Shown here: piece by piece, positions 1 through 57,591 of the stretch
Layout: each line of letters starts with the position of its first letter
How positions within the stretch are numbered: position 1 is the first letter of the stretch
Source of the DNA: Escherichia coli
Lineage (GTDB): Bacteria > Pseudomonadota > Gammaproteobacteria > Enterobacterales > Enterobacteriaceae
Assembly (NCBI RefSeq): GCF_001677475.2
Contig: NZ_CP015229.1
Direction: 5' to 3' (one strand)
Length of the DNA: 64,000 nt
Notes under the pieces: model-generated
Told to the model about the DNA's origin: nothing
Databases searched by the model: none
Seen by the model: the letters and a program-made list of their open reading frames with translations, nothing else
Position numbers and translations under genes: made by a program

Positions 1-1
1 G

Positions 2-784
2 ATTAACAGCAACGATAAAGATTATCAAGAATACATTGCCACCTACCCATTGCCAATAGATAGCGCAACACATAAAAAAGTCAAAAAATTAAGACCAGTC
101 TGCATCTCCCACTCTCAACATGGTAACTCGATCACTATTACAACAACTTATCTTCGTCCATTCAAAGAAAGAAGTGCAATTGAAACAAATACACTAAGCC
201 CAGCAACACAAAAAGAACTCAATTGTTTTGATGAAATAATTGGAATAAAAGATAGATACATCCAATGTTTTGACACAATTACTTTTAACTATGTTTCCGG
301 CGAAATAACATTTGAAATCGACATGTGTACAAATCTTAACCATAATGAATTGGAGCGCGCATCAACAAGATATCGTAGAATATTAATGTACCTTTTCCAT
401 AAAGAGAATTCATATCACGTCGCCTTCATTAGAAAAAATATATTTACTGCTATCGATAAACTTTACAAATCTGCCGATGGTACCATTTTAAAACTTGGGC
501 ATGCCACAGGAACAGGCTCAGTAAAAGAAGAAAAAATGAGAAAGAGAAAAGATGATTTAAGGAAGGAAAAATATCATGCCGCAGGCTTAGCGGCAATTGG
601 AGGAAAAACTAATAACTTTAGTATTTCTAAACAATGGAATGGAGCACACAATAACATTTTAACAATGCATGTACCCGGACATTTTTCTTTAATTTCATCC
701 TCGCTACCATTTATAAATCATGTTATAATCGAAGGGTGTGTTTGTAAATCAGATTATGAGTTATTGATGTCAAAGGTTTTCTAA
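2..784 (+). CDS. Hypothetical protein, 5'-truncated by window edge; first visible gene of AT-rich three-gene operon
   Basis: Reading frame is open from position 2 to stop at 782-784 (track ORF 50..784 begins at an internal TTG); stop abuts the ATG of the next gene; visibly AT-rich. Confidence 0.45.
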   Translation: MNSNDKDYQEYIATYPLPIDSATHKKVKKLRPVCISHSQHGNSITITTTYLRPFKERSAIETNTLSPATQKELNCFDEIIGIKDRYIQCFDTITFNYVSGEITFEIDMCTNLNHNELERASTRYRRILMYLFHKENSYHVAFIRKNIFTAIDKLYKSADGTILKLGHATGTGSVKEEKMRKRKDDLRKEKYHAAGLAAIGGKTNNFSISKQWNGAHNNILTMHVPGHFSLISSSLPFINHVIIEGCVCKSDYELLMSKVF

Positions 785-1177
785 ATGAATAAGCAGGAAA
801 TGAAAGATATCATACAACATTCTTTTGCTACCGACAGCAAAGTTGGTTTTGCATGTATGAATATTTATCATTACCTGCTTAATGAAGATCTGGATAATTT
901 AAAATATATAACATTCAATAACTTGCAAAAAGTCAGTAATGTTGATCAAAGTATCCTTTACGAGGCAATTACTTATCTATCTGGAGAAAAAGCACCAATA
1001 TTATCAATCGGATACGAATATATTGATGGTGATGACATTTTTGAAATCTCTCAAGATGAGTTAAGCAAAATATATTCAGAAGGAACATTTTATTTCGATG
1101 GCAAACCAGTCCTCAATTGGCAGTCGAAAGTTTACATTTACTTTTATGCATCAGAGTTCTGGAAAGGCCTAGAATGA
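785..1177 (+). CDS. Hypothetical acidic protein (130 aa)
   Basis: ORF 785..1177; ATG directly follows the upstream stop, and its own stop overlaps the next ATG (ATGA), so it is translationally coupled on both sides. Confidence 0.5.
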   Translation: MNKQEMKDIIQHSFATDSKVGFACMNIYHYLLNEDLDNLKYITFNNLQKVSNVDQSILYEAITYLSGEKAPILSIGYEYIDGDDIFEISQDELSKIYSEGTFYFDGKPVLNWQSKVYIYFYASEFWKGLE

Positions 1178-1839
1178 TGGATAATCAGAATAATTTTACG
1201 TTAGAATCGCTGAAGTTCGCAGCGTCATTCGATGAGAGCGCAGCACGCCTTTACCGAAGAATTACATGCAATTCATACGATAAATTTATTGAAATGTTTT
1301 ATATTGACTTAGAAAAAACAATCAGATTGATTGAAAAAAATGCAAGCTTAATGCAAAACGATGGAGAAGACCGTTTATCTATAGAAATAATTAATATACT
1401 AATTGGCTTCGGATATGATTCTGGTCATGATAATTATATAAATGGGCACTCAGACATTGTTGTAAGTTTCAAAAACTACACATGGATTGGAGAGGCTAAA
1501 ATTCATAGCTCATACGACTATTTAATGGAAGGATTCCATCAATTATGCTCTCGTTACTCCACAGGAAGTGAAGATGATTGTCAAGGAGGATTAATAATTT
1601 ATGTGAAAAGCAACAATGCATTAGATGTCGTAGAGAAATGGAAAAAAACATTAACCTCTAAAAAAGATGACTTTGAAGATTTTTATTTATCCGATTGCAA
1701 AACAAGAGAAAAGTTGAGCTTTTACTCTAGCCACAAACACCCTAAATCTGGATTACCATACAAAGTAAGACATTTCGCTGTAATATTGGGATTTGCACCT
1801 AAAGACAAAAGTGCGAGAACAGCAAAGTCCAGAAAATAA
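1174..1839 (+). CDS. Hypothetical protein with PD-(D/E)xK-like motif (putative nuclease fold)
   Basis: Internal ATG of track ORF 1117..1839 overlaps the upstream stop (ATGA). Protein has GEDRLSIEI ... GHSDIVVSF ... IGEAKI, an E / hydrophobic-D / ExK spacing typical of PD-(D/E)xK nucleases; assigned by eye only. Confidence 0.45.
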   Translation: MMDNQNNFTLESLKFAASFDESAARLYRRITCNSYDKFIEMFYIDLEKTIRLIEKNASLMQNDGEDRLSIEIINILIGFGYDSGHDNYINGHSDIVVSFKNYTWIGEAKIHSSYDYLMEGFHQLCSRYSTGSEDDCQGGLIIYVKSNNALDVVEKWKKTLTSKKDDFEDFYLSDCKTREKLSFYSSHKHPKSGLPYKVRHFAVILGFAPKDKSARTAKSRK

Positions 1840-1869
1840 TAAGTTTTATTATCTGGACCAAGGCTGTTT

Positions 1870-2217
1870 TTATCTATTTAGAATACACATAATACCATCA
1901 ATAAATCCAAGTGCAGTTTGCAACTCCTTTCTAATAGTTCCATCCGAGCATTTCCGCTTCTTTGCGATTGTACGGAGTGAAATCCCGATAACAAAGTGAG
2001 CAATGATCAGCTCATATTCTTCTGGTTTATATTTCCGCAACCGGGCCACACATCCATCAATCATAATTCCTTCATCATCATCGCACTGGAGACGTGACTT
2101 TTTACCGTGTGGTAGAAGCCCCTTGAAACCAGCCGCTATCGGCTGCCAGTCGACACCACTATTTTCTGCTGCAGCCCAAGCCCCCCAACGATCTAAAGCT
2201 TCGTACATATCACGCAT
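1870..2217 (-). CDS. Phage antitermination protein Q-like
   Basis: 115 aa beginning MRDMYEALDRWGAWAAAENSGVDW...GFKGLLP...SRLQCDDDEGIMIDGCVARL, which resembles the Q family of lambdoid/Qin-type prophages; it is the last gene of the minus-strand early-right operon. Confidence 0.55.
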   Translation of the reverse strand: MRDMYEALDRWGAWAAAENSGVDWQPIAAGFKGLLPHGKKSRLQCDDDEGIMIDGCVARLRKYKPEEYELIIAHFVIGISLRTIAKKRKCSDGTIRKELQTALGFIDGIMCILNR

Positions 2218-2474
2218 CAGCGCAGTACCTCCTGCACCAGTTTTTCAAACTTTCCAACTTTGGTTTCCAGCTCCGCCACACAATCCACCAGCTCATCCAC
2301 TGCTTTTTGTGCGCGATGTTTCGCCTGCATCAGTTCCCTGAGCGCTGGTACCATATCCCGACGAATGGCATCTTTTGTTACACCTGTTTTTTCCAGTTGT
2401 TCCGCCTGCCGCAACATTTCCTGTGCCTGTTTACGTAATTGCTCAGGGGTAAAAGTCATTGTCTGGTTGTTCAA
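2217..2474 (-). CDS. Hypothetical small helical phage protein (85 aa)
   Basis: ORF between the DnaB-like gene and Q-like gene on the same strand, with start/stop overlaps to both neighbours. Confidence 0.4.
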   Translation of the reverse strand: MNNQTMTFTPEQLRKQAQEMLRQAEQLEKTGVTKDAIRRDMVPALRELMQAKHRAQKAVDELVDCVAELETKVGKFEKLVQEVLR

Positions 2475-5662: not shown

Positions 5663-5876
5663 CTCCCAGGCGTTTAAACATTTTTCCGGACTGAAACGCC
5701 ACCAGCGGATAACTCAGGGTATGAGTACGTCCCTGAACCTGGCAGACAACCTTCTGGCTTTCTGTATTGACCAGGCAAACCCGCAGAACGTGACCGTTGC
5801 TGGTGGTGAACCACTGCCCCACACGGGGGCAACGGTTGTATCGGTGATACAGGGAATTAACGACGCGGCGAATCAT
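5643..5876 (-). CDS. Hypothetical small protein (77 aa)
   Basis: ATG at 5874-5876 has a strong GGGAGG Shine-Dalgarno 7 nt upstream and overlaps the upstream stop (ATGA); lies just upstream of the O-like gene. Confidence 0.45.
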   Translation of the reverse strand: MIRRVVNSLYHRYNRCPRVGQWFTTSNGHVLRVCLVNTESQKVVCQVQGRTHTLSYPLVAFQSGKMFKRLGGGYASV

Positions 5877-6379
5877 GGGCGCGCCTCCCATTGATTACGG
5901 CGGAAAGCAGTGTGAGTCAGGCTGGTTTCGGCCTCATGGAATGCTTCAATGCAGCTCTCGTAGTACCGCATTGTGCGCAGACTTAACCCAAGCTGAAGCA
6001 TCATCAGACCATCAAGAGTTATGTAATAACCACGCAAAGAATCGCCATAAAGGTGATAAGTGCCGGGTATGAAATTACGGGTGAAAAACTCGCGCGAGCA
6101 GTTCAGATACTCGATTTTGTCGACGATATTCTGGTGCATGCGCTTGAAGTGGCAGGCAACATGCAGAGAGAAAATAACGGCCTTGCCGTTGACGGTCTCA
6201 ATTTTGAGGAATGGGTGAGTAGTGGTGGTAGTCATGGTGACAGCCCCGGTAGTCAGTTTGTTAGAAAACTCACCACCAAGGCTTTCCACGACCTTATAGG
6301 TGGTGAGACGTACAGGGGTGGAAATACCGGAGACTACCGAACCCGGCCCGACCGAAGTCGGCCCTGTACGCCCCACCAT
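5873..6379 (-). CDS. Hypothetical protein (start uncertain; C-terminal part of a long open frame)
   Basis: Frame is open from 7174 to 5873 but its upstream part overlaps the well-supported FinO-like gene; only the portion downstream of that gene is called. The stop overlaps the next ATG (ATGA); no convincing RBS was found at ATG 6379 or GTG 6472. Confidence 0.3.
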   Translation of the reverse strand: MVGRTGPTSVGPGSVVSGISTPVRLTTYKVVESLGGEFSNKLTTGAVTMTTTTTHPFLKIETVNGKAVIFSLHVACHFKRMHQNIVDKIEYLNCSREFFTRNFIPGTYHLYGDSLRGYYITLDGLMMLQLGLSLRTMRYYESCIEAFHEAETSLTHTAFRRNQWEARP

Positions 6380-6533
6380 AATTTGGGCGTAGCAATGCTC
6401 ATGACACGAAAAAACCGCATGAGCGCGGTTATGCTCAGTAATCAATTTCGGGTTTCCACGCCCGGCATCCACTTTACAAGATGCCTGAATAGTGTAACGT
6501 CCCGAAATTAAGGAATCAATGTTTTGATAAAAT

Positions 6534-6926
6534 TCAGCGATTAGACGCTTCTTTTCTACCCATATTAACTTTGAACAAGAGCTCCATACGACGAGTCCAG
6601 ATACCACGTTCTTTGAGTTGTGCTCTGGCTTCTTCGCGTTCAGATACGGATGTTCTGACAATACGATTTCCCGCCAGATTGCGGCGATATTCTCCAAACG
6701 CGACTGACTGAAGGTATGAATCTGAGCTTTTGTACTGATAGATGGCTCTTCGAAGGCTGTTTTTGTATTCCTTAGGTATATGTCCGAGATCGGCAAAGAG
6801 CTCATGAACGATATCGTGAACAAGCGGAACCACTTTGTATGGAATAACAAAGAAGCTTTCTGGATAGCGTTCAGCCAATACTTTAATGATTTCTTTATTT
6901 GCAAGATGCCTTGCTTTTCTTCCCAT
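6534..6926 (-). CDS. FinO/ProQ-domain RNA chaperone-like protein
   Basis: KEIIKVLAERYPESF...PL...SLRRAIYQYKSSDSYLQSVAFGEYRRNLAGN...EREEARAQLKE aligns by eye with the ProQ N-terminal FinO domain (KEVIAFLAERFPHCF...RSALRLYTSSWRYLYGV...RVDLDGN...EHARKQLEE). Confidence 0.7.
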   Translation of the reverse strand: MGRKARHLANKEIIKVLAERYPESFFVIPYKVVPLVHDIVHELFADLGHIPKEYKNSLRRAIYQYKSSDSYLQSVAFGEYRRNLAGNRIVRTSVSEREEARAQLKERGIWTRRMELLFKVNMGRKEASNR

Positions 6927-6989
6927 ATACCATTCTCCATTACTCTAGATATCAGAATGATATATCCAGGTTTTTCAAGCAGTTCAAGC

Positions 6990-7163
6990 TTATGCTGGTG
7001 CTTCACACTCAACAAAATCACGACGAAACAACCACAGCGGGCTGAAGCATTCATGCGGATAACCATCACGCAGGTAAATAACCCGCTGTGTTTCAGGCTC
7101 CCAGCGTATAACGTGGACACGACGCCCCCTTCCGTCACGGAACCAGCGATTGAGTACTTGCAT
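6990..7163 (-). CDS. Hypothetical small protein (weak call)
   Basis: Short ORF between the Lar-like and FinO-like genes; ATG at 7163 lies 8 nt after the Lar-like stop; RBS is weak. Confidence 0.2.
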   Translation of the reverse strand: MQVLNRWFRDGRGRRVHVIRWEPETQRVIYLRDGYPHECFSPLWLFRRDFVECEAPA

Positions 7164-7170
7164 TTGGATT

Positions 7171-7389
7171 TCATTCCACACCTACCCCTTCACGCTGATT
7201 CCAGTCATGAACAGCACGTTCTTTCGAATCAGGAATCTGGTTTGCGTTACAGCAAGTACATGCGACGTAATAACCATCATCGCCATCCAGAAAATATTTC
7301 ACCTCAATGAGTTGTACTTCCGGATTTCCGCAGAATGGGCAAGGTTTCAGCTCGACATCACCAGTTACACACGTCTTGATTTGCATCAT
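7171..7389 (-). CDS. Lar-family restriction alleviation protein (anti-restriction)
   Basis: ELKPCPFCG...GYYVACTCCNA...AVHDWNQR matches the Lar/restriction-alleviation zinc-ribbon signature (KPCPFCG ... C-x-x-C ... WN-R). Confidence 0.65.
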   Translation of the reverse strand: MMQIKTCVTGDVELKPCPFCGNPEVQLIEVKYFLDGDDGYYVACTCCNANQIPDSKERAVHDWNQREGVGVE

Positions 7390-8240
7390 TTGTTCTCCTG
7401 TAAAAGATTCGCAAGCTCAGTGTTATGGGTAAACAGCCCATCCCATGTTTTCTTCATCGGTAGTTCGCCGTTCAGATAATGGCGATATAACCAGGCAGCA
7501 CCTTTGGGCTTTAGTAACGGTTTAAAGGTGTCTCGCATTTCCCCATTTTCCTGCTCAACCCGGTTGTAGCGCTCCGTCAGATACTGATCACGTGCATACG
7601 CTTTTACACGCCAGCGTGGATACATAGCCTCCGGACGGTCGTCATACAGCCAGTTACGCTCTTCAAGGAACGCATTAATCTGACGAGTGTTTACACCGTT
7701 GAGTTGTTTGCAGAACTGCACAGGAGTGATGCCATCGGCGAGATGACTTTCGAGTTTGCTGATGTAGCGAGCCTGACGCTCTGCATACCCGAGAGCAAGG
7801 CGCTCGGATTTTTTGGCTTCAATCCACGCTTCAGCAGCAGCGATCGGATCGTCAAAGTCTGGAATAGTGTTTGAAGAAGGCGTTGCTTTACGAAAATACG
7901 CCTGCTCCATTTTTTCGAAGAACGACCAGGCCTCGTCTGTATCGACGATTTTTGACATGCGGGCAGCGCCGCGTTCTGTCCAGAGGACAAGTGATGTTGT
8001 ATGTTTATTAACCGACTCGCTAAAAGATAGTCGGAAAGATTTCAGCTCATCACTGCTGATTTTGAAAAAGTGTTTACCCTCAACGAAACGATCTTCATTT
8101 CGAATGTAGTTCTGTTGTATACGGATTGGCGTTGTTCCATATCCCGCCGCCAACGTTTCGGTGGTAACTACACGTACTCCCTGCCACTCAATAACTGGCA
8201 AGTTTTCAGGGTTGACTAATTTTTGTTTATTGATCATCAT
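7386..8240 (-). CDS. Phage antirepressor-like protein (ORF6N/KilA-N-type N-terminal domain)
   Basis: N-terminal IEWQGVRVVTTETLAAGYG...IRNEDRFVEGKHFFKI is characteristic of the ORF6N antirepressor domain; located immediately downstream of the Cro-like gene. Confidence 0.6.
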   Translation of the reverse strand: MMINKQKLVNPENLPVIEWQGVRVVTTETLAAGYGTTPIRIQQNYIRNEDRFVEGKHFFKISSDELKSFRLSFSESVNKHTTSLVLWTERGAARMSKIVDTDEAWSFFEKMEQAYFRKATPSSNTIPDFDDPIAAAEAWIEAKKSERLALGYAERQARYISKLESHLADGITPVQFCKQLNGVNTRQINAFLEERNWLYDDRPEAMYPRWRVKAYARDQYLTERYNRVEQENGEMRDTFKPLLKPKGAAWLYRHYLNGELPMKKTWDGLFTHNTELANLLQENK

Positions 8241-8316: not shown

Positions 8317-8583
8317 TCATCGCATGGACATTTCTGATGAATCACTCTGCCCATCTTCCGTGTGCGCTAAGCTTGGATGTGCTCCACGCTTGTTTTTGCG
8401 CGAGCGGTTCTTGTACAGGTTCAGATCGCACTTCAGAGCTCCATCAGTTAGTTTCTCAAGCTCCAGAGCACGCCCTTTAGGTACAATTGCTCCCCATCGA
8501 GTAACAGCCACTTGCGATACATCTAAAGCGCGCGCAACCTTTGCTTTAGTTCCAAAAAACGCAACTGCGTCTTGTGTTTTCAT
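8317..8583 (-). CDS. Cro/YdaS-like HTH DNA-binding protein
   Basis: 88 aa with N-terminal HTH (KAKVARALDVSQVAVTRW); divergent from the XRE repressor gene across a ~95-bp intergenic region. Confidence 0.55.
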   Translation of the reverse strand: MKTQDAVAFFGTKAKVARALDVSQVAVTRWGAIVPKGRALELEKLTDGALKCDLNLYKNRSRKNKRGAHPSLAHTEDGQSDSSEMSMR

Positions 8584-8678
8584 ACCACCTCCAAATAACT
8601 TATGTTTATCTTACTTCTATAACCATAGTTAGTTCAAGTTAACATATATTAATGATTCAACTAGTAGAGAGGATCCCC
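8584..8678. promoter_or_regulatory. Divergent promoter/operator region of the prophage immunity switch (predicted)
   Basis: AT-rich spacer between divergent HTH genes containing partially symmetric AGTTCAAGTTAAC / TTCAACTAGTA elements; operator sites not defined. Confidence 0.3.
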
Positions 8679-9065
8679 ATGGAAATAAGCGAACGCATTA
8701 CTATGAGACGCAAAGAGTTAGGACTTACCAAACTAGCCCTAGCCAAGACGCTAGGGCTGTCAGGTGTCAGCATATTGAAGTGGGAAAATGGGCAAAACGA
8801 GCCAAGCGGGAAAAACCTTTTCGCTCTCAGTGACGCTCTAAAATGCTCCCCGGCATGGTTGCTTTTTGGTGACGAAGATAAGTCTCCGACGCCAGTTGAT
8901 GAACTTCCAACAGAATTAGACGAGCAGCAAACTCAACTACTGAGTTTATTCAATCAACTACCAGACTCGGAAAAAACCATATTAATCAATGAGATATCAG
9001 CAAGAGTTGAGAACTTCAACAAACTATTTGAAGAATTACTAAGGGTCAGAAAACAACGCAAATAA
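8679..9065 (+). CDS. XRE-family HTH repressor (CI-like, short, no peptidase domain)
   Basis: MEISERITMRRKELGLTKLALAKTLGLSGVSILKWENG has an HTH_XRE signature; GAGAGGA RBS before ATG 8679; no S24/LexA-like autocleavage domain is visible. Confidence 0.6.
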   Translation: MEISERITMRRKELGLTKLALAKTLGLSGVSILKWENGQNEPSGKNLFALSDALKCSPAWLLFGDEDKSPTPVDELPTELDEQQTQLLSLFNQLPDSEKTILINEISARVENFNKLFEELLRVRKQRK

Positions 9066-9070
9066 TTATA

Positions 9071-9104
9071 AAACGGCAATCTATTCAGTAGGTTGCCGTT
9101 TTCT
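9071..9104 (+). terminator. Rho-independent terminator downstream of the repressor gene
   Basis: Hairpin CGGCAATCTATTCAGTAGGTTGCCG followed by TTTTC. Confidence 0.45.
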
Positions 9105-9209
9105 CACCCCCAAAAAACTAACTTTTATTAATTTTTACTTGCCCTAAAAGTTATCTTTAGTTATTGTTTGTGGCGTTTAGTTAATGCAACAAAAGTTATA
9201 GACGAAATT

Positions 9210-9668
9210 ATGAACACTCAAAATGGCGAACTTGACTTATTTGACATAGCAGACGAATCACAGATTTTGAACGATTTACTCTCAGTTATTGCATCCGTAA
9301 TCACACATGCAAGCAACGAAATAAACGAAATTGAATCGTGCATGAGCATTGCCTGGAGGATTAGCTCTTCAATTAATGAAAACTTACTTAAGCTCACCAG
9401 AACAGCACAAGCTAAATCAGCGCGTTCATGCAAACAAAATTTAGCTATTAATTCACAGAATCGTCTTCGCCACCAACGCGAAGCCTGCGGCTTAACAACC
9501 GCCGAACTCGCCAGGCTGCTCGATCTCGATGAAGAAATTATCATCCAGTGGGAGAGCGGAGAGTATGAACCAACTATCAGTATGCTTATCCCACTGGCAA
9601 ATGTTCTTGGTTGCGACCCGATATGGCTGTTAACTGGTAAACCAACAGGTGGGGATACTTGCGCATGA
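9210..9668 (+). CDS. Hypothetical protein with C-terminal XRE-type HTH domain
   Basis: C-terminal GLTTAELARLLDLDEEIIIQWESGEYEPTISMLIPLANVLGCDPIWLL is a typical HTH_XRE; the N-terminal ~90 aa are unassigned; start codon uncertain (track ORF begins at 9168). Confidence 0.5.
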   Translation: MNTQNGELDLFDIADESQILNDLLSVIASVITHASNEINEIESCMSIAWRISSSINENLLKLTRTAQAKSARSCKQNLAINSQNRLRHQREACGLTTAELARLLDLDEEIIIQWESGEYEPTISMLIPLANVLGCDPIWLLTGKPTGGDTCA

Positions 9669-9907
9669 AAAACTGTGATGCTTACCACATATGTCTCATT
9701 GGTGAATTGCTTGATTGCATACAAAAAAGCGCTGAGCGCAATAATAAAAATATAACATACGGTAATCTGGCAATAATTTCAGAGGATATTAAGAGCATCG
9801 CTCTTAAATTCAAGAGCGATGCGAACATTGACGACACTATTTACGCTTATCTTGCGAAAATAGTTGACGGATCCAAAAACCAGCCTCTGGATGAGGACCG
9901 TCAGTAA
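9665..9907 (+). CDS. Hypothetical small protein (80 aa)
   Basis: ATG overlaps the upstream stop (ATGA); its 3' end overlaps a convergent minus-strand ORF. Confidence 0.35.
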   Translation: MKNCDAYHICLIGELLDCIQKSAERNNKNITYGNLAIISEDIKSIALKFKSDANIDDTIYAYLAKIVDGSKNQPLDEDRQ

Positions 9908-10064
9908 AAAATTCATTTGATGAACATGAGAAGTGCTTCATAAAATTTACTTTATCTTCAGGTGAAACCACCTGACGAATTAATGCAGAGATAGCGACTT
10001 TGTGCCACATTAATTCTTTTTTGAGCGCTGAAATTTCTTTTTCAAGTTGCTCTTCGTTAATCAT
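9837..10064 (-). CDS. Hypothetical small coiled-coil protein (75 aa)
   Basis: ATG at 10062-10064 is preceded by a GGAGGA Shine-Dalgarno; the protein (MINEEQLEKEISALKKEL...) is predicted helical; it overlaps the 3' end of the plus-strand ORF 9665..9907. Confidence 0.4.
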   Translation of the reverse strand: MINEEQLEKEISALKKELMWHKVAISALIRQVVSPEDKVNFMKHFSCSSNEFFTDGPHPEAGFWIRQLFSQDKRK

Positions 10065-10244
10065 TTTATCCTCCATTGAGAGCTGAATTGTAAATGGAGA
10101 CCAACACGCGGCTACGTGTGGTCGTGCGCCGGACACGGATAAGCATCCGGTAACTAATTATCAATCATTGAGGAAACAGTCTCAATATGAAAACACTTCT
10201 GAGACTCGCTATATAGCAGAACATATAAGTCAGCTGAGGAAGCC

Positions 10245-10610
10245 ATGAAAAAGTTCGAAAACATAACTGTTCTCCATGTTGATGACTTTGATTATACAAA
10301 CCCGGAACTTCTCCCGGAGGTTGTAAAGGCAATAGATGTTGCCGATATAGTGATTAGAGGAAAGAGAATTGTCAAAAACAGGCTCGCATGCACTTCAGGA
10401 GCAATGACAGAAACAACCTCACAACAAGATGATTATGAAGGCATTTGTCTGGAGCCTGACTCATTTGCGGTAAATGTTTATCATTTATTGCATGCAACAC
10501 AGGTATTACATATGTCAAGTAATCACGAAACAAAAACACTTGGCAGCGAAATTCTGAATTTTGCATGTGAATATGCAAAAGCTGCTGCCGAAAAAGAATT
10601 AGCGCAATAA
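10245..10610 (+). CDS. Hypothetical protein (121 aa)
   Basis: ORF with GAGGAA RBS upstream of the ATG; no recognised motifs. Confidence 0.45.
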   Translation: MKKFENITVLHVDDFDYTNPELLPEVVKAIDVADIVIRGKRIVKNRLACTSGAMTETTSQQDDYEGICLEPDSFAVNVYHLLHATQVLHMSSNHETKTLGSEILNFACEYAKAAAEKELAQ

Positions 10611-10806
10611 CAATAAATATTCCCTGAATGTTTATTACGGTTTTATCGCCGGGGATTGTTGCAACCTTTATTCGCAGGAGATTATGTTATGACTTTCCTG
10701 AAACATAAGGCATCGTATAAAACTGCCTGCCTCATTGCACAACATGGAGATTCTTATCTTCATATAGCCAACCTGTATTTGCGCAAAGCATATGGGAGAT
10801 AAGTCA

Positions 10807-10995
10807 ATGGAAGAAAAACAACTGAACATAACACATGAAAAAGTAAGAGTGTTGCTAACTATTGAAAATGGAAAAGTAATTTACTCAAAACATCTGCTGG
10901 ATAATGAATTCGTTGGCTGCATGGATACATTTCTGTGGATGGCAAAAAGAGCAGGCTACACGATTATTCCACCAGCAAAGGAGCAAACATTATGA
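10807..10995 (+). CDS. Hypothetical small protein (62 aa)
   Basis: Internal ATG with GGGAG RBS; its stop overlaps the next ATG (ATGA). Confidence 0.35.
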   Translation: MEEKQLNITHEKVRVLLTIENGKVIYSKHLLDNEFVGCMDTFLWMAKRAGYTIIPPAKEQTL

Positions 10996-11573
10996 ATCAT
11001 TCAGAGTTCCAACCAGAAGTTACGCCACATGGCATAAAAATTGGCAATACAACCATTGATTATGTTGAGGCCGTACAGCGACTTAATGATGGTGAGTACG
11101 ACAATCCATACTGGCACGGTTTAAGAATCATGCAATGTATTGCGGAAGCCGATGATGCCGGATTCCTGGGAAGATTTTCAGTCGATCTGAAGGTTGCTCA
11201 GTGGCGCTGGCTGTATGTAGCGAAATTTATCAGTGAAGAGGAAGACAAGAACGGCACCATTGATATCCCTAACGATAACGGAACTACAGATCGCGCAGTT
11301 ATTTATAAGGGGAAGCATGGTTGCATGAGTATATACCCAGGGCCACTTCGCATTGCCCTGCAAAACCATGTCGAATGGGGATTCATTGAAAAATATGGCG
11401 AAGCTGAAGGCATGGGGCGAGTTCTGTTTCTCTATCAAAAAATGCTCATCGCAGATCCTGATAATGGCTTCATTGTCTCTGCTATGGGACGAGAAGGGCT
11501 TGAACTTCTTCTGGATGAAATGATTCACGATCTGAATACTCATGGTATGCCAGAAACACCAGTGGCACATTAA
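10992..11573 (+). CDS. Hypothetical protein (193 aa)
   Basis: ATG overlaps the upstream stop; no recognised motifs. Confidence 0.5.
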   Translation: MNHSEFQPEVTPHGIKIGNTTIDYVEAVQRLNDGEYDNPYWHGLRIMQCIAEADDAGFLGRFSVDLKVAQWRWLYVAKFISEEEDKNGTIDIPNDNGTTDRAVIYKGKHGCMSIYPGPLRIALQNHVEWGFIEKYGEAEGMGRVLFLYQKMLIADPDNGFIVSAMGREGLELLLDEMIHDLNTHGMPETPVAH

Positions 11574-11575
11574 AT

Positions 11576-11854
11576 ATGTCAAATCAGAATAAAATTAATG
11601 TATTTCAGGTTGAGTCAAAACATAAAACACCTGTGATAAAACACGTTCGCCGCCATACACGCATCTATACGCCAGAAGAGTTTATGGCAATGCCAATGAT
11701 AAAGAAACTCATACGAGACAATCCCGGTCTCGTTGCTATAGATAAAAACAGTGGAGAAATAATGTTATCACGTGAGATTGCCGAAATTTACTGTAGCGTG
11801 AATAACAGTAAAAAGTTGAAAAAGGCAATCAGAAAGATATCAGGAGGAGCATGA
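11576..11854 (+). CDS. Hypothetical basic protein (92 aa)
   Basis: ORF immediately after the previous stop; its own stop overlaps the next ATG. Confidence 0.45.
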   Translation: MSNQNKINVFQVESKHKTPVIKHVRRHTRIYTPEEFMAMPMIKKLIRDNPGLVAIDKNSGEIMLSREIAEIYCSVNNSKKLKKAIRKISGGA

Positions 11855-12039
11855 ATATTTATTTCAGAATAGTCATATCACTGGCAATTATCGCATGCAT
11901 TTACGGATTACTCGTCCCGTTTCTGATATCAATGAAGGATACGGTAGCGGTAATTTCTGGCTTTGCACTGACGTTTCTGACCCCGCCATGCATTTATGCC
12001 ATTTATAAGGGGCTTTCTTTCACTAAGGATAAAAGATGA
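11851..12039 (+). CDS. Small hydrophobic membrane protein (62 aa)
   Basis: Two hydrophobic stretches (IVISLAIIACIYGLLVPFLI and VAVISGFALTFLTPPCIYAIY); translationally coupled on both sides (ATGA overlaps). Confidence 0.45.
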   Translation: MNIYFRIVISLAIIACIYGLLVPFLISMKDTVAVISGFALTFLTPPCIYAIYKGLSFTKDKR

Positions 12040-12863
12040 AAAAAATTATTTTTTCTTTAGCCATTGTTCTGCCTGCCATTGGCCTTGTCGGTTGTGATCG
12101 TGTTGAACCAGGTAATGTTGGCATCAAGGTAAATAAACTGGGCGACGACAAAGGCGTCGGTGAGGTGGTCGGTGTTGGTCGCTACTGGACTGGCTGGAAT
12201 ACTGAAGTTTACATCTTCCCCACCTTCAAGCAAATGAAGACCTACGATGAACCGTTCAGTTTCCAGATGAGTGACGGTACAACCATCGGCTATCACATTG
12301 GCGTGGCCTACAAAGTTGATCCATCCAAAGTTACCACGGTGTTTCAGACTTACCGCAAAGGCGTGGATGACATTACCGACACTGACCTGCGCCAGAAGAT
12401 CGCCGACGCACTCAACCGACTGGCCAGCAAAATGACCACTGACAAATTTATCGACGGCGGGAAGTCTGAACTACTGGATGCAGCTCTTAAAGACATTCAG
12501 GCAGAGATGACACCTATCGGTATTCAGGTAATGAGCCTCTCATATGTGGGTAAGCCGGAGTACCCGCCTACTGTTATCGACAGCATTAATGCCAAAGTCA
12601 CGGCGAACCAGAAAACACTGCAGCGCGAGCAGGAAGTTAAACAGCGCGAAGCGGAAGCCAACATGTTGCGCGCGGAAGCTGCCGGACAGGCTGATGCGAT
12701 TCGCACAAAAGCCCAGGCCGAAGCCGATGCTATTCGTTTACGCGGTGAAGCTCTGCGCCAGAACCCCGGTGTTATGGAGCTGGAAGCCATCAATAAATGG
12801 AACGGCACACTGCCGCAATACATGACCAGCGGTGCCAATACACCATTTATCCAGGTTAAATAA
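12036..12863 (+). CDS. SPFH/band-7 (stomatin/prohibitin-like) domain lipoprotein
   Basis: Signal peptide with lipobox LVGC; body resembles SPFH domain proteins, followed by an Ala/Glu/Gln-rich coiled-coil (QREQEVKQREAEANMLRAEAAGQADAIRTKAQAEADAIRLRGEA). Confidence 0.6.
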   Translation: MKKIIFSLAIVLPAIGLVGCDRVEPGNVGIKVNKLGDDKGVGEVVGVGRYWTGWNTEVYIFPTFKQMKTYDEPFSFQMSDGTTIGYHIGVAYKVDPSKVTTVFQTYRKGVDDITDTDLRQKIADALNRLASKMTTDKFIDGGKSELLDAALKDIQAEMTPIGIQVMSLSYVGKPEYPPTVIDSINAKVTANQKTLQREQEVKQREAEANMLRAEAAGQADAIRTKAQAEADAIRLRGEALRQNPGVMELEAINKWNGTLPQYMTSGANTPFIQVK

Positions 12864-12903
12864 CTTATATGCCCGGCAGAACGCCGGGCTAAGGAAAAAA
12901 CAG

Positions 12904-13275
12904 ATGAATACCCAGAATACTCAACCGCAAATAATGAATTATGACCCGAATCTGACGTCATGCGGACGCATGGCAAAACAAACCGTTCGATTAACTTTCG
13001 GGCTATGGGAATACCGCGAAACATTCGAAGTTACTGTCGGTGGCAACCTGACCGGACTCGATGTTATCAGTTGCGCTATTGAAAGTCTGTACGCAACTCT
13101 GCCTTATGAAGAAGTCCAGAATGAGCGCACAGGGGGAACGGATATCATGGCTACCATTAATATTGGCGAACTGACATGCCAGGATGAAGACCTGTCCGGA
13201 GAGCTCTGGCTTGCCGGGATGCTTATCTCAGCAGAAATTATCAGTATTGAACCCGCTACAAACATACGGCTTTGA
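12904..13275 (+). CDS. Hypothetical protein (123 aa)
   Basis: Internal ATG of track ORF 12832..13275 with an A-rich RBS region. Confidence 0.4.
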   Translation: MNTQNTQPQIMNYDPNLTSCGRMAKQTVRLTFGLWEYRETFEVTVGGNLTGLDVISCAIESLYATLPYEEVQNERTGGTDIMATINIGELTCQDEDLSGELWLAGMLISAEIISIEPATNIRL

Positions 13276-13306
13276 AGTTCTCACTATTCAGAGAGCAGGA
13301 GAAAAA

Positions 13307-13549
13307 ATGTTCGCTTTGATTAATCAGGGACAGCTGTATACCGACAGTGCCGGTTACCCGGTAAAAATTATTCGCTGCATAAATAACACTGTGTTGTACA
13401 GAAGAATGGATGGGCGAACACAGTCGGTAAAAATAAACGATTTTAATGAAATGTTTGAACGGCTCGATCACCTAGAATACCGACAAATTCAGGCAGAAGC
13501 AGAGCAGGAAACTCATCTAAAAAAATTACGGGCCATGAAAAGGAAGTAA
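13307..13549 (+). CDS. Hypothetical protein (80 aa)
   Basis: ATG with AGGAGA RBS (cagagagcaggagaaaaaATG). Confidence 0.4.
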   Translation: MFALINQGQLYTDSAGYPVKIIRCINNTVLYRRMDGRTQSVKINDFNEMFERLDHLEYRQIQAEAEQETHLKKLRAMKRK

Positions 13550-13707: not shown

Positions 13708-13917
13708 GTGGGGCTGGATTGCGTACCTATATCAACCTACTGCCGCAACGCAGGAGAAACGGTTGATGCCGTTAACAAACGGATACAAAGAGGAATATGG
13801 AAAGAAGGGGTACATGTATTAAAAGTCGACGGAGTTAAAGAACGTTGGGTCGACTTAATGGAGATTACAAAATGGGCAAGAAAGAACAAGGATCATTATC
13901 TCTCCCCAGAGGAGTAA
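13708..13917 (+). CDS. Excisionase-like protein (putative Xis)
   Basis: 69-aa ORF with GTG start and GAGGTG RBS, immediately upstream of and overlapping the integrase gene; small winged-helix-like protein typical of Xis. Confidence 0.45.
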   Translation: MGLDCVPISTYCRNAGETVDAVNKRIQRGIWKEGVHVLKVDGVKERWVDLMEITKWARKNKDHYLSPEE

Positions 13918-15044
13918 CTATTCGCCAGCATAAAACTGGCAGCACCATGGTTATCACTTTTACATATAAAGGGGTTCTGTGTCGGGAGCCCCTCTCCAGA
14001 ATGGAAGTAAATGCGCGCGGTGTGAAGTACGCCGAGCGTCTGCTGGGAGAAATAAAAAATCAGATTATCGATGGTACCTTCGAATATGCAAAATACTTCC
14101 CCAACTCCCAAAAACTGGAGCTGTTCGGGGGAGTGAAAAAAAACAAAAATATAAAATCTTACCTGGATGAATACCTGATTATCTGCCAGAACCGTAACCT
14201 GTCACCATCGACAATTAAAGGTTATGAAAAATGCCTGTCGGCGCTGTCAGCACTGCACAAATTTCATGTATCAGAACTGACGCCAGCAGTACTCAAAAAC
14301 TGGATCGCCAGCAGAAAAACAAAACTGAAAACGATCCGCAATAATCTTTCATTTCTGCGCAGCGCCATAGATGAAGCGGTAACAGATGGTTTGTTAACAA
14401 TAAATCCTGTCACGCTAGTCAGCGCCAGCCGATATCACGTATTAGACAACACACCAGGCAGTGATGATTACGAGGTCGATCCTTTTACGCCAGCGGAGAC
14501 AGCAGCAATCTATGACGCCTGTCATTACCCGGAATGGCGAAATCTGTTTCGCTTCGCCTTTAATACCGGGCTGCGCAGCTCAGAATTGTGCGCGCTGCGC
14601 TGGACAGATATAGACTTCATCGACAACACAGCGCATGTCCAGACTGCAAGCGTAGTCGGGGTAATCAAAAGCACCAAAACAAAAGCCGGCACTCGCAAAG
14701 TACAACTGAACAGCGAAGCGCTGGCGGCTCTTCAGGCACAAAAGCCCTACACAGCGCTAAAAAGCGACTTTATATTCAGCGATCCGAAAACTCGCGCCCC
14801 TTGGGCAAACGCGGACGCGATTCGAAAAAAAGCCTGGCTACCAACCCTTAAAAAGGCTGGAGTACGCTATCGCAATCCGTACCAGACACGCCACACGTTC
14901 GCCACTAGGCACATTAGCCAGGGCGTTAATCTGTTCTGGCTTGCTGGTCAGATGGGGCATAAAGGACCGGAAATGCTGTTCAGACATTACGGTTCTTACC
15001 TTGCAGAATACGATGGAAAAACGGCGATTTCTGCAACCCCGTGA
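13872..15044 (+). CDS. Phage tyrosine integrase (IntR/IntS-like)
   Basis: C-terminal catalytic region with RHTFATRHISQGVNLFWLAGQMGHKGPEMLFRHYGSYL (R/H/Y motif region); N-terminal arm-binding-like domain; GGAG RBS before ATG 13872. Confidence 0.8.
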   Translation: MGKKEQGSLSLPRGVTIRQHKTGSTMVITFTYKGVLCREPLSRMEVNARGVKYAERLLGEIKNQIIDGTFEYAKYFPNSQKLELFGGVKKNKNIKSYLDEYLIICQNRNLSPSTIKGYEKCLSALSALHKFHVSELTPAVLKNWIASRKTKLKTIRNNLSFLRSAIDEAVTDGLLTINPVTLVSASRYHVLDNTPGSDDYEVDPFTPAETAAIYDACHYPEWRNLFRFAFNTGLRSSELCALRWTDIDFIDNTAHVQTASVVGVIKSTKTKAGTRKVQLNSEALAALQAQKPYTALKSDFIFSDPKTRAPWANADAIRKKAWLPTLKKAGVRYRNPYQTRHTFATRHISQGVNLFWLAGQMGHKGPEMLFRHYGSYLAEYDGKTAISATP

Positions 15045-56917: not shown

Positions 56918-56994
56918 TGGTGCATCCGGGAGGATTCGAACCTCCGACCGCTCGGTTCGTAGCCGAGTACTCTATCCAGCTGAGCTACGGATGC
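56918..56994 (-). tRNA. argQ: tRNA-Arg (anticodon ACG)
   Basis: Reverse complement is GCATCCGTAGCTCAGCTGGATAGAGTACTCGGCTACGAACCGAGCGGTCGGAGGTTCGAATCCTCCCGGATGCACCA; name assigned by position in the array. Confidence 0.85.
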
Positions 56995-57096
56995 ATCGGG
57001 AAAACTTATTTTACTGCTGATATTGATACCGCTACTAAAGCCATATCAAATAAGAAAATCCATCTTAACCATCATCACTGATGATTACGGAGAATA

Positions 57097-57173
57097 TGGT
57101 GCATCCGGGAGGATTCGAACCTCCGACCGCTCGGTTCGTAGCCGAGTACTCTATCCAGCTGAGCTACGGATGC
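57097..57173 (-). tRNA. argZ: tRNA-Arg (anticodon ACG)
   Basis: Identical 77-nt tRNA-Arg sequence; second copy. Confidence 0.85.
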
Positions 57174-57235
57174 ATCGGGAAATTTATTTTACTGCTGATA
57201 TTGATACCGCTACTAAAGCCATATCAAGTAAGAGA

Positions 57236-57312
57236 TGGTGCATCCGGGAGGATTCGAACCTCCGACCGCTCGGTTCGTAGCCGAGTACTCTATCCAGCTG
57301 AGCTACGGATGC
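57236..57312 (-). tRNA. argY: tRNA-Arg (anticodon ACG)
   Basis: Identical 77-nt tRNA-Arg sequence; third copy. Confidence 0.85.
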
Positions 57313-57376
57313 ATCGGGAAACTTACTTTACTGCAGATTTTTTGATACCGCTACTAAAGCCGTATCAAGTAAGAGA

Positions 57377-57395
57377 TGGTGCATCCGGGAGGATT
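57377..57395 (-). other. Truncated tRNA-Arg fragment (3'-terminal ~19 nt only)
   Basis: TGGTGCATCCGGGAGGATT matches the 3' end of the tRNA-Arg copies, then diverges into unrelated sequence. Confidence 0.4.
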
Positions 57396-57588: not shown

Positions 57589-57591
57589 AAA

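What the first reader, a model, noticed from the sequence alone, without database searches (positions are those of the whole stretch)
10245..13549. Prophage early-left operon is entirely uncharacterised cargo, including a small membrane protein coupled to an SPFH/band-7 lipoprotein
Between the repressor region and xis/int, where lambda carries N, recombination and kil/gam functions, I recognise no recombination or antitermination genes. Instead there is a chain of eight mostly translationally coupled ORFs of unknown function. Two adjacent genes stand out: a 62-aa two-helix membrane protein (11851..12039) whose stop overlaps the start of a 275-aa lipoprotein with an SPFH/band-7 domain and a long coiled-coil (12036..12863). 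Envelope-located pairs like this in prophage accessory regions are candidates for superinfection exclusion or membrane-acting defence.
Basis: partly seen in the sequence, partly recalled or inferred. Interest (0 to 1): 0.55.

Follow-up and report, generated by a model that had tools for sequence, protein, structure and literature searches.

The report
Phage SPFH lipoprotein plus hairpin partner
A phiP27-like E. coli prophage carries a two-gene membrane module, a 62-aa two-helix hairpin and an HflK/C-like SPFH lipoprotein, that recurs in hundreds of phages including the virulent model phage N4 (gp19-gp20); its function has never been tested, so this is an ordinary copy of a common but unexplained phage module rather than special prophage cargo.

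Summary
Window 10245-13549 carries eight real, same-strand, tightly packed genes in the left arm of a phiP27-like prophage. None resembles Exo, Bet, Gam or N.

The 275-aa protein is a confident SPFH/Band-7 lipoprotein (Pfam E=8e-31; AF2 pLDDT 92). Its best fold matches are the cage-forming proteins HflK/C, prohibitin and erlin. The 62-aa ORF is a two-helix hairpin joined to it by an ATGA overlap.

The "prophage cargo / defence" framing is weak:
- Seven of the eight ORFs belong to established phage families.
- The pair is homologous to gp19-gp20 of virulent phage N4.
- SPFH homologues occur in 650 of 50,697 phage genomes.
- The hairpin lies directly upstream of the SPFH gene in 261 of 273 loci from four phage clades, and is fused in frame to it in at least 13 distant family clusters.
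- PADLOC gives no hit.

Best reading, which is an inference: the hairpin supplies the transmembrane posts and the Asp+2 lipoprotein supplies the periplasmic wall of a split HflK/C-like cage on the inner membrane. The cage would act early in infection on a conserved host target, with FtsH the leading candidate. Superinfection exclusion remains a live rival. This copy is ordinary, but the family is uncharacterised and can be tested in N4.

The parts
10245..10610 (+). L08-like ORF, 121 aa, unknown function (phrog_5451)
   Evidence: PHROG E=2e-83 over the full length. No Pfam hit and no PDB sequence relative. 99% identical to phiP27 L08.
10792..10995 (+). L07-like ORF, 67 aa, unknown function (phrog_340)
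   Evidence: PHROG E=3e-24. Its stop overlaps the next start as ATGA.
10992..11573 (+).
11576..11854 (+). orf92, a basic 92-aa ORF; a variable insert of uncertain status
   Evidence: No PHROG, Pfam or PDB hit. Present in 6 of 83 related loci. Starts 2 nt after the L06 stop, and its stop overlaps the orf62 start.
11851..12039 (+). orf62, a two-helix inner-membrane hairpin (N-in/C-in) and partner of the SPFH lipoprotein; homologue of N4 gp19 (phrog_1130)
   Evidence: PHROG E=2e-23. Hydropathy and Shine-Dalgarno sequence. Alignment with N4 gp19, Pylas gp28, PVP-SE1 gp116, ORM_20_191 and fused N-termini shows invariant Pro23 and near-invariant Ser27. Found upstream of the SPFH gene in 261 of 273 loci.
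12036..12863 (+). SPFH/Band-7 lipoprotein, 275 aa (phiP27 L05, N4 gp20 family, phrog_200): signal peptide and lipobox LVGC (Cys20, Asp21), SPFH domain about 22-175, wall helix 178-242, short helix 244-254, conserved C-tail W255/G257/P260
   Evidence: Pfam Band_7 E=8e-31. PHROG E=2e-114. AF2 pLDDT 92. Foldseek top hits are HflK/C, prohibitin and erlin at E about 1e-13. Conserved columns are listed.
12904..13275 (+).
   Evidence: PHROG E=1e-52 over the full profile. RefSeq name 'DUF5406 family protein'. Shine-Dalgarno sequence before 12904.
13307..13549 (+).
   Evidence: PHROG E=4e-32. RefSeq name 'DUF4222 domain-containing protein'. Shine-Dalgarno sequence AGGAG before 13307.
13708..15044 (+). 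Excisionase (13708-13917) and tyrosine integrase (13845-15044), closing the left arm next to ypjA/ehaD
   Evidence: phrog_2917 excisionase E=1.5e-40. phrog_1 integrase E=2e-65. RefSeq annotation of close relatives.
8317..9668 (.). Immunity region that bounds the block: cro-like regulator (8317-8583, - strand), 137-aa HTH repressor (8652-9065, +), terminator-like hairpin (9070-9102), CII-like HTH regulator (9168-9668, +)
   Evidence: PHROGs. Inverted repeat I2. The motif AACTAACT occurs exactly at 8625-8634 and 9116-9125, with a near-copy at 10152-10161. This is weak evidence for shared operators.

Best explanation
orf62 and the SPFH lipoprotein form one two-part membrane device, a 'split HflK/C'.

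Shown here:
1. The 275-aa protein has the full architecture of cage-forming SPFH proteins: an SPFH domain, a 65-residue wall helix and a conserved C-terminal cap motif.
2. In place of a transmembrane helix it has a lipoprotein signal with Asp at +2.
3. A conserved two-helix hairpin gene is translationally coupled to it across very different phages, and is fused in frame to it in many distant relatives.
4. The hairpin's only invariant residues lie at the periplasmic turn.

Inferred:
1. The mature lipoprotein stays on the periplasmic face of the inner membrane and oligomerises into a dome, as HflK/C does.
2. The hairpins dock under its rim through their periplasmic loop and supply the transmembrane fence that the lipid anchor cannot.
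3. The device is made early, from the repressor-controlled leftward operon in this prophage and from the early/middle region in N4. It serves the phage's own development by fencing off a conserved host inner-membrane client.
4. The leading candidate client is the FtsH protease, which HflK/C cages and which controls CII-type regulators. Functionally this would be analogous to lambda CIII, which sits at the same operon position.

My confidence in the architectural part is about 0.7, and in the FtsH-client part about 0.3.
For: SPFH identity and architecture:
- Pfam Band_7 E=8e-31 and AF2 pLDDT 92.
- The top structural matches are HflK/HflC (7vhq, E=4e-14), prohibitin and erlin. These are the extracytoplasm-facing SPFH cages that partner with membrane proteolysis. 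Stomatin, QmcA and flotillin score lower.
- HflK is the only family detected by sequence in the PDB (E=1e-3) and in NCBIfam (weak HflC/HflK hits).

Lipoprotein and sorting:
- Cys20 is at least 90% conserved.
- Asp is at +2 in about 85% of hairpin-associated loci in four clades, with Tyr or Glu in most of the rest. Asp+2 is the established Lol-avoidance signal in E. coli (my knowledge).

Coupling of the two genes:
- The ATGA overlap is kept in 81 of 81 close loci.
- The hairpin lies upstream of the SPFH gene in 79/79 P27-like, 78/78 N4-like, 70/80 PVP-SE1-like (plus 9 divergent two-TM ORFs) and 34/36 phiE125-like loci.
- Of 20 N-terminally extended family representatives, 13 match orf62 at E<0.001 and 15 at E<0.01 (against a 20-sequence set), and 19 keep a lipobox Cys.
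- The phrog_200 profile itself has about 80 extra N-terminal positions.
- Hairpin Pro23 and Ser27 at the TM1/loop boundary are the only (near-)invariant residues.

A role for the phage rather than for the lysogen:
- Homologues occur in virulent phages N4 (gp19-gp20, 62% identity), Pylas, PVP-SE1 and others, among early, middle or replication genes.
- Conservation across podo-, myo- and siphoviruses of several host genera points to a conserved host target.

FtsH context:
- HflK/C is a 24-mer periplasmic cage that encloses FtsH hexamers (PMC13086221).
- This prophage encodes a CII-like regulator at 9168-9668 (phrog_4836, E=1e-41).
- Other authors have independently speculated about an HflK/C-like role (PMC8540360 and PMC4936722).
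Against: - No experiment exists for any family member in the searched literature, and the role is called 'unclear' (PMC13239085).
- Similarity to HflK/C is remote (16-17% identity). NCBIfam scores are far below the cut-offs (24.6 bits against 134).
- Prohibitin, erlin and stomatin match almost as well, so nothing points specifically to FtsH.
- I could not model oligomerisation, hairpin-SPFH contact or FtsH binding.
- The +2 residue is not Asp in every member (Tyr in N4 gp20, Glu in PVP-SE1 gp118), and it varies widely (T, S, G) across the whole family. Outer-membrane sorting of some members therefore cannot be excluded.
- It is not obvious why a virulent phage would need to gate FtsH.
- More distant SPFH phage proteins (Panisse, Ab22, phiCbK, Staphylococcus 812) lack this hairpin.
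- One natural prophage keeps the SPFH gene after losing the hairpin (L002).
- The promoter and terminator scans were no better than chance, so the timing of expression in this prophage is inferred only from gene order.
Confidence: 0.35

Rival explanations
1. Superinfection exclusion or membrane-acting defence. The inner-membrane hairpin and the periplasmic lipoprotein would block DNA entry by secondary phages. The analogy is T4 Imm (membrane protein) plus Sp (periplasmic, membrane-anchored), or lipoproteins such as T5 Llp or TP-J34 Ltp.
For: - The pair is envelope-located and lies in an early operon.
- Its distribution is accessory and mosaic. orf62 is only about 90% identical where the SPFH protein is about 99% identical, and the SPFH protein is absent from some members of otherwise related phage groups (PMC8540360).
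- N4's superinfection-exclusion system is explicitly unidentified, although superinfection is thought to trigger its lysis inhibition (PMC12642591).
- One fused family member sits next to an Acb2/Tad1-like gene, in a counter-defence neighbourhood.
Against: - No PADLOC hit, and no paper links SPFH to anti-phage defence.
- Known exclusion proteins are narrow and fast-evolving. This module is conserved at 40-60% identity across phages with unrelated virions, receptors and hosts, which fits a generic host target better than a specific incoming phage.
- More than 60 N4 rapid-lysis isolates yielded no gp19/gp20 mutations. This is weak evidence against a role upstream of lysis inhibition.
- No known exclusion protein has an SPFH cage architecture.
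Confidence: 0.25
2. Generic membrane organisation or protection without a specific client. The phage SPFH scaffold would stiffen or compartmentalise the inner membrane. This could preserve proton-motive force and integrity during a long, high-yield infection, or protect against membrane-disrupting abortive-infection effectors.
For: - SPFH proteins generally organise membrane microdomains (PMC9872710 introduction; PMC13086221).
- Homologues occur very widely, in 650 phage genomes including jumbo, crAss-like and Lak phages and in giant viruses.
- A fused member lies next to an Acb2/Tad1-like gene.
- In Staphylococcus phage 812 the SPFH gene lies beside the holin and endolysin genes.
Against: - This reading is hard to distinguish from the best explanation.
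- It does not explain the invariant periplasmic-loop residues of the hairpin, or why a dedicated partner is so tightly coupled.
- There are no data on membrane phenotypes.
Confidence: 0.2
3. Lysis-timing regulator. The 62-aa N-in/C-in hairpin with a charged tail looks like a class II holin or antiholin, and the SPFH cage would restrain or time it.
For: - Size, topology and the basic C-terminus resemble pinholin-type proteins.
- The Staphylococcus phage 812 SPFH gene is adjacent to the holin and endolysin genes.
- N4 shows lysis inhibition by an unresolved mechanism.
Against: - The pair lies far from the lysis cassettes and in early regions.
- N4's lysis genes are gp60-63, and rapid-lysis mutants do not map to gp19/20.
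- No holin Pfam match was found for the hairpin alignment (best E=0.04 for one member).
Confidence: 0.08
4. Lysogenic-conversion surface or virulence lipoprotein. The model is the prophage-island HflK/C-like protein PM0222 of Pasteurella multocida, which is reported to be released in outer-membrane vesicles and to trigger TLR1/2 signalling.
For: - PMC9872710 reports a prophage-encoded SPFH protein as a virulence factor.
- The window's prophage type includes Stx-converting phages.
- The pair is found in 569 of 5,426 E. coli genomes.
Against: - Presence in strictly virulent phages and in phages of environmental bacteria argues against a role aimed at animal hosts.
- Asp+2 predicts inner-membrane retention.
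- Any triacylated lipoprotein can stimulate TLR2 (my knowledge).
- Homology between PM0222 and this family was not tested because no sequence was available.
Confidence: 0.05

Closest known systems
Phage N4 gp19-gp20, phiP27 L05, Pylas gp28-gp29, PVP-SE1 gp116/gp118 (PHROG families 1130 and 200)
   Same: These are direct homologues. The SPFH protein is 99% (phiP27), 62% (N4) and 49% (PVP-SE1) identical. They share the two-TM hairpin with the P-x-L-[IV]-S motif, the same gene order and an overlapping stop/start.
   Different: Nothing material. The window copy has an extra 92-aa ORF upstream, and its hairpin allele is 90% identical to the phiP27 one. None of these homologues has a tested function. 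The phiP27 record labels L05 'putative serine protease', which looks like a name carried over from 'membrane protease subunit' annotations. No protease domain is present.
E. coli HflK/HflC-FtsH complex
   Same: It shares the periplasm-facing topology on the inner membrane, the SPFH domain plus long wall helix plus C-terminal cap architecture, and it gives the best structural and sequence matches. The link to phage lysis-lysogeny control through CII is classical.
   Different: The phage protein has a lipid anchor instead of an N-terminal TM helix. It is a single SPFH protein rather than a K/C heteropair, with a separate (or fused) two-TM hairpin. Identity is only 16-17% and NCBIfam scores are far below cut-off. 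FtsH binding is untested.
SPFH-NfeD operons (for example E. coli QmcA-YbbJ)
   Same: An SPFH gene is translationally coupled to a small membrane-protein partner gene. The QmcA-YbbJ complex is among the structural matches (8z5g).
   Different: The partner here has no NfeD OB-fold or protease domain and no Pfam family at all. It lies upstream, not downstream. The SPFH domain faces the periplasm, whereas QmcA faces the cytoplasm (my knowledge).
Lambda CIII (pL operon FtsH inhibitor)
   Same: It occupies the same operon position, between the immunity region and xis/int in the leftward early operon. It would have the same proposed target, FtsH, in a phage that also encodes a CII-like regulator.
   Different: There is no sequence or structural relation. 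CIII is a 54-aa cytoplasmic amphipathic peptide (my knowledge). The analogy is positional and hypothetical only.
T4 Imm / Sp superinfection-exclusion pair
   Same: It is an early-expressed pair of a small inner-membrane protein and a membrane-anchored periplasmic protein (my knowledge; T4 exclusion is summarised in PMC12642591).
   Different: No homology was detected. Imm and Sp are not SPFH proteins and are confined to T-even phages, whereas this module spans many phage families.

Membership tests
SPFH / Band 7 superfamily (Pfam PF01145) | Significant match to the Band_7 profile | tested here: met
   E=8.2e-31, residues 22-208, covering model positions 2-176 of 176
SPFH / Band 7 superfamily (Pfam PF01145) | SPFH alpha/beta fold followed by a long coiled-coil helix, as in cage-forming members | tested here: met
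   AF2 pLDDT 92, helix 178-242. Foldseek probability 1.00 to HflK/C, prohibitin, erlin, stomatin, flotillin and QmcA.
SPFH / Band 7 superfamily (Pfam PF01145) | Assembly into large ring or cage oligomers on a membrane | not testable with these tools
   No multimer prediction or experiment was available. The feature is inferred from the architecture only.
Bacterial lipoprotein, inner-membrane retained | Signal peptide ending in a lipobox [LVI][ASTVI][GAS]C | tested here: met
   MKKIIFSLAIVLPAIGLVG-C20. Cys20 is at least 90% conserved. 108 of 150 representatives have a lipobox.
Bacterial lipoprotein, inner-membrane retained | Lol-avoidance residue (Asp) at +2 | tested here: met
   Asp21 in the window. 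Asp is at +2 in about 85% of hairpin-associated loci, but N4 has Tyr and PVP-SE1 has Glu. Actual sorting is not testable here.
PHROG 200 (lipoprotein) / PHROG 1130 (membrane protein) phage gene pair | Full-length profile matches for both proteins, with the genes adjacent | tested here: met
   E=2e-114 and E=2e-23. Adjacency or overlap in 261 of 273 loci.
HflK / HflC (FtsH modulators, NCBIfam TIGR01933 / TIGR01932) | Score above the curated equivalog cut-off | tested here: not met
   24.6 and 22.7 bits against cut-offs of 134.4 and 159.4
HflK / HflC (FtsH modulators, NCBIfam TIGR01933 / TIGR01932) | N-terminal transmembrane anchor and a K/C heteropair | tested here: not met
   The protein has a lipoprotein signal instead of a TM anchor and there is a single SPFH gene. 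The adjacent hairpin may substitute for the TM part, which is an inference.
HflK / HflC (FtsH modulators, NCBIfam TIGR01933 / TIGR01932) | Binds and encloses FtsH | not testable with these tools
   This needs co-purification or complex modelling.
SPFH-NfeD operon | Partner protein carries an NfeD (OB-fold, with or without ClpP-like) domain | tested here: not met
   The hairpin is 62 aa, and 21 members have no Pfam family.
Known anti-phage defence systems (PADLOC-DB v2) | Any protein of the block matches a defence-system model | tested here: not met
   0 hits at E<=0.01 for the ten proteins searched, which include all eight ORFs of the block
Lambda-type early-left functions (Exo, Bet, Gam, N, Kil, CIII) | Sequence or fold similarity of any ORF to these proteins | tested here: not met
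Class II holin / pinholin | Two TMDs N-in/C-in with a charged C-tail, plus holin family membership or a lysis-cassette context | tested here: inconclusive
   The topology fits, but there is no holin Pfam match and no lysis-gene neighbourhood.

The most novel reading that the evidence does not exclude
Many phages, from temperate P27-like prophages to virulent N4 and rV5-like phages and possibly crAss-like and Lak phages, would carry a 'split HflK/C': a lipoprotein SPFH dome plus a previously undescribed hairpin partner class that replaces NfeD or a TM anchor. It would cage the host FtsH protease, or another conserved inner-membrane machine, from the periplasmic side. That would be a widespread viral strategy for reprogramming host membrane proteolysis, and an envelope-side functional analogue of lambda CIII.
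Probability: 0.2. Interest if true: 0.75.

Novelty: new member of a known kind. Interest (0 to 1): 0.4.

Why it matters
SPFH lipoproteins are among the more common phage genes with no known function. Homologues occur in 650 of 50,697 phage genomes, the pair occurs in about 10% of complete E. coli genomes, and they are also carried on phage-plasmids. Genome papers repeatedly call their role unclear.

Three results turn a vague annotation into a concrete model. The SPFH protein comes with a dedicated hairpin partner that is fused to it in distant relatives. It carries an inner-membrane sorting signal. It has an exact counterpart in the tractable model phage N4 (gp19-gp20).

If the cage holds FtsH, the classical Hfl pathway of lysis-lysogeny control would connect to a phage-encoded mimic. 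If instead the pair excludes secondary phages, it would fill the gap recently pointed out for N4's unidentified exclusion system. For this particular window, the practical message is that the locus is a routine copy of phiP27 L03-L08 and not unusual cargo.

Tried and rejected
- Defence system: PADLOC gave no hits for any ORF. A literature search for SPFH with anti-phage defence found nothing.
- 'Serine protease' (the GenBank label of phiP27 L05): rejected. Only a Band_7 domain is present.
- NfeD-like partner: rejected, because the hairpin has no Pfam family.
- First survey of phiE125-type loci gave 0 hairpins. This was an artefact of ORF starts over-extended in high-GC DNA. After re-anchoring on the profile alignment it was corrected to 34 of 36.
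- Promoter and terminator scan: counts were at or below the shuffled expectation, so it gives no support for or against operon boundaries. The shared operator motif AACTAACT is only weakly enriched (19 matches against 11 expected; 5 of 100 shuffles reach 19).
- Profile search with the hairpin alignment in the 5.8-billion-protein set returned only 34 stand-alone proteins of about 62-69 aa. It was too insensitive to size the family.
- N4 rapid-lysis mutants (PMC12642591): none map to gp19/gp20.
- The CRISPRi-ART paper could not be queried for N4 because the search term was too short.
- Homology of Pasteurella PM0222 to this family could not be tested because no sequence was available.

Full report
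**Context.** Window positions 1 to about 15,100 are one arm of an E. coli prophage integrated next to the ypjA/ehaD autotransporter gene. The 5.1 kb around the finding is 95-98% identical to prophages in complete E. coli genomes, where RefSeq labels the genes 'hypothetical', 'SPFH domain-containing', 'DUF5406', 'DUF4222', excisionase and integrase. It is also 96% identical to genes L03-L09 of the Stx2e phage phiP27. PHROGs shows a lambdoid layout. The immunity region (cro-like gene, a 137-aa HTH repressor, a CII-like HTH regulator) lies at 8.3-9.7 kb. A rightward arm on the minus strand carries anti-repressor, O-like, DnaC-like and DnaB-like genes. The block in question runs leftward to xis/int.

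**Observation.** All eight ORFs are present. Seven match phage protein families at E = 3e-24 to 2e-114. The eighth, the 92-aa ORF, matches nothing and occurs in only 6 of 83 related loci. Three ATGA stop/start overlaps and one 2-nt gap link L07-L06-orf92-orf62-SPFH. Starts at 10992, 12904 and 13307 fit the family profiles, the ribosome-binding sites and the RefSeq calls. No + strand terminator is predicted inside the block, but the promoter and terminator scans perform no better than shuffled sequence. The motif AACTAACT occurs exactly in the repressor/cro intergenic region and just after a terminator-like hairpin that follows the repressor gene, with a near-copy upstream of L08. This is only weak support for a repressor-controlled leftward operon.

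**The SPFH lipoprotein.** Pfam gives Band_7 at E=8e-31. An AF2 model built on 78 diverse homologues is confident (pLDDT 92). It shows a signal helix, an SPFH alpha/beta domain (about 20-175), a single 65-residue helix (178-242), a short helix, and a flexible tail that carries the family's invariant W255/G257/P260. Foldseek ranks E. coli HflK/HflC first (E=4e-14), followed by prohibitin, erlin, stomatin, QmcA, flotillin and the vault protein. These are the cage-forming SPFH proteins. By sequence alone, HflK is the only solved relative (E=1e-3), and NCBIfam gives HflC/HflK hits far below cut-off. The protein is therefore SPFH but not an HflK/C orthologue. The N-terminus ends in the lipobox LVGC followed by Asp. 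The 'putative serine protease' label in the phiP27 record has no domain support.

**The hairpin and its coupling.** orf62 has two hydrophobic helices, a short loop, a basic C-terminus and a strong Shine-Dalgarno sequence. In 81 of 81 close viral loci with intact upstream DNA it overlaps the SPFH start by ATGA. One prophage (OkiPb01695) has a deletion that removes it. Among 150 representatives of the SPFH lipoprotein family (221 clusters at E<1e-30), 20 carry N-terminal extensions. Thirteen of these match orf62 at E<0.001 and fifteen at E<0.01 (E-values relative to a 20-sequence set). The hairpin is fused in frame ahead of a retained lipobox. The PHROG 200 profile likewise has about 80 extra N-terminal positions. 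The same hairpin, with the motif P-x-L-[IV]-S-A-x-[DS]-T, precedes the SPFH gene in N4 (gp19), Pylas (gp28), PVP-SE1 (gp116), phiE125 (gp44), Ochrobactrum phage ORM_20 and a prophage with PolA/SNF2 replication genes. With an HMM of 21 hairpins I found it directly upstream in 79/79 P27-like, 78/78 N4-like, 70/80 PVP-SE1-like and 34/36 phiE125-like loci. Nine of the ten PVP-SE1-group misses have a divergent two-TM ORF in the same place. The only invariant or near-invariant hairpin residues, Pro23 and Ser27, sit at the TM1/loop boundary on the periplasmic side. The hairpin has no Pfam family. More distant SPFH phage proteins (Panisse, Ab22, phiCbK, Staphylococcus 812) lack this hairpin, although some have other small membrane ORFs upstream.

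**Localisation.** Asp occupies position +2 in about 85% of hairpin-associated loci across the four clades. Tyr (N4) or Glu (PVP-SE1) fill most of the rest. Asp+2 is the established Lol-avoidance signal in E. coli (my knowledge). Together with a partner whose conserved residues face the periplasm, and with natural fusions that insert both parts into the same membrane, this supports a periplasm-facing inner-membrane location. That is the topology of HflK/C. It is inferred, not shown.

**Distribution.** Homologues of the SPFH protein occur in 650 of 50,697 phage records. These include strictly virulent phages: N4 and N4-like phages, rV5-like, PaP3-like, phiCbK, Staphylococcus K/812, crAss-like and Lak phages. 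BFVD shows SPFH folds even in giant viruses. The window's pair is found in 569 of 5,426 complete E. coli genomes, and 240 of the 658 matching places are on plasmids of about 95-107 kb that look like phage-plasmids. In virulent phages the pair sits among early, middle or replication genes: after the N4 RNAPII genes, and beside dUTPase in Pylas. One fused member lies next to an Acb2/Tad1-like gene.

**Literature.** Genome papers note phage SPFH lipoproteins and call their role unclear, or speculate about an HflK/C-like influence on lysogeny or about DNA entry. A Pasteurella prophage-island 'HflK/C-like' protein was reported as a TLR1/2-stimulating virulence factor, but I could not test its homology to this family. 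A 2025 preprint on N4 lysis states that N4's superinfection-exclusion system is unidentified. Among more than 60 rapid-lysis mutants, none maps to gp19/gp20. HflK/C is described as a 24-mer periplasmic cage that encloses FtsH hexamers.

**Interpretation.** The firm conclusion is that orf62 and the SPFH lipoprotein are one conserved two-component phage module, identical in kind to N4 gp19-gp20. They are not lysogen-specific cargo. My preferred mechanism is a split HflK/C-like cage. The lipoprotein forms the periplasmic dome and the hairpins form the transmembrane fence. The cage acts early in infection on a conserved host inner-membrane client, with FtsH the leading candidate. The reasons for favouring FtsH are that the closest architectures (HflK/C, prohibitin, erlin) all gate membrane proteolysis from the extracytoplasmic side, that the prophage encodes a CII-like regulator, and that the module occupies the position of cIII in the lambda map. 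I put about 0.7 on the architectural part and about 0.3 on the FtsH part. Superinfection exclusion (about 0.25) remains a serious rival, particularly given the open question in N4. Generic membrane stabilisation (about 0.2), lysis timing (about 0.08) and lysogenic conversion (about 0.05) follow.

**Verdict.** The SPFH call is correct and already in public annotation. The 'uncharacterised' claim is correct, while the 'prophage cargo / defence candidate' framing is only weakly supported. The locus is a routine member of a known but functionally unexplored phage gene family. The added value of this analysis is the hairpin-SPFH linkage (conservation and fusions), the inner-membrane sorting signal, and the N4 equivalence, which makes experiments straightforward.

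Noticed in passing
L002 (NZ_AP042570.1, E. coli OkiPb01695) 6993-7337: A natural deletion removes the 3' end of L06, orf92 and the hairpin gene but leaves the SPFH gene 100% identical and intact. This is an 'orphan SPFH' lysogen that could serve as a natural control.
   Followed up: partly
L087 218-1807 (Logan SRR31638522 contig): A family member with the hairpin fused to the SPFH protein (P0144, 365 aa) sits two genes downstream of a protein with an Acb2/Tad1-hairpin Pfam hit (an anti-CBASS/anti-Thoeris sponge family). This hints at a counter-defence gene neighbourhood.
   Followed up: no
window 1-2300: A low-GC stretch (33-34%, against about 50% elsewhere) carries three + strand ORFs (50-784, 785-1177, 1117-1839). 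They match PHROGs of unknown function (12777, 11490, 9664) and lie beyond the DnaB-like gene, so they may be accessory cargo of the prophage's other arm.
   Followed up: no
window 8652-9065: The repressor-position protein is a 137-aa HTH protein with no sign of a LexA/S24 peptidase domain, whereas related prophages carry 218-230-aa LexA-family repressors (L001, L002). Two anti-repressor-type genes follow on the other strand (7386-8240 and 5873-7174). This suggests a different immunity type and anti-repressor-based induction.
   Followed up: partly
window 9659-10136: Two convergent ORFs overlap by about 70 nt: 9659-9907 (+, phrog_23054, E=2e-49) and 9837-10136 (-, phrog_20080, E=1e-41). Both have strong PHROG support. 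A minus-strand gene would sit inside the presumed leftward operon.
   Followed up: no
window 9070-9102: A 14-bp inverted repeat followed by a T-run lies right after the repressor gene stop (terminator-like). It is followed by an exact copy of the AACTAACT motif that also lies in the repressor/cro intergenic region.
   Followed up: partly
window 15359-20056 (- strand): An intact 1,565-aa YpjA/EhaD-type autotransporter adhesin gene lies directly beside the prophage integrase end. The same gene is frameshifted or split in at least one related genome (L003).
   Followed up: no
window 13307-13549; L002 2698-2871: DUF4222 small proteins occur twice in related prophages: once here next to xis/int, and once in the rightward arm of strain OkiPb01695. 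This looks like a duplicated small phage gene family of unknown role.
   Followed up: no
L094 (Staphylococcus phage 812) 1-2253: In Kayvirus phages the distant SPFH homologue ('prohibitin domain membrane protein', with a TM anchor and no lipobox) lies immediately after the holin and endolysin genes and a one-TM ORF. This context differs from that in the Gram-negative phages.
   Followed up: no
window 56918-57684: A cluster of four tRNA-Arg(ACG) genes and one tRNA-Ser(GCU) lies on the minus strand, and a lone tRNA-Met is at 22961-23036. These are ordinary chromosomal features unrelated to the finding.
   Followed up: no
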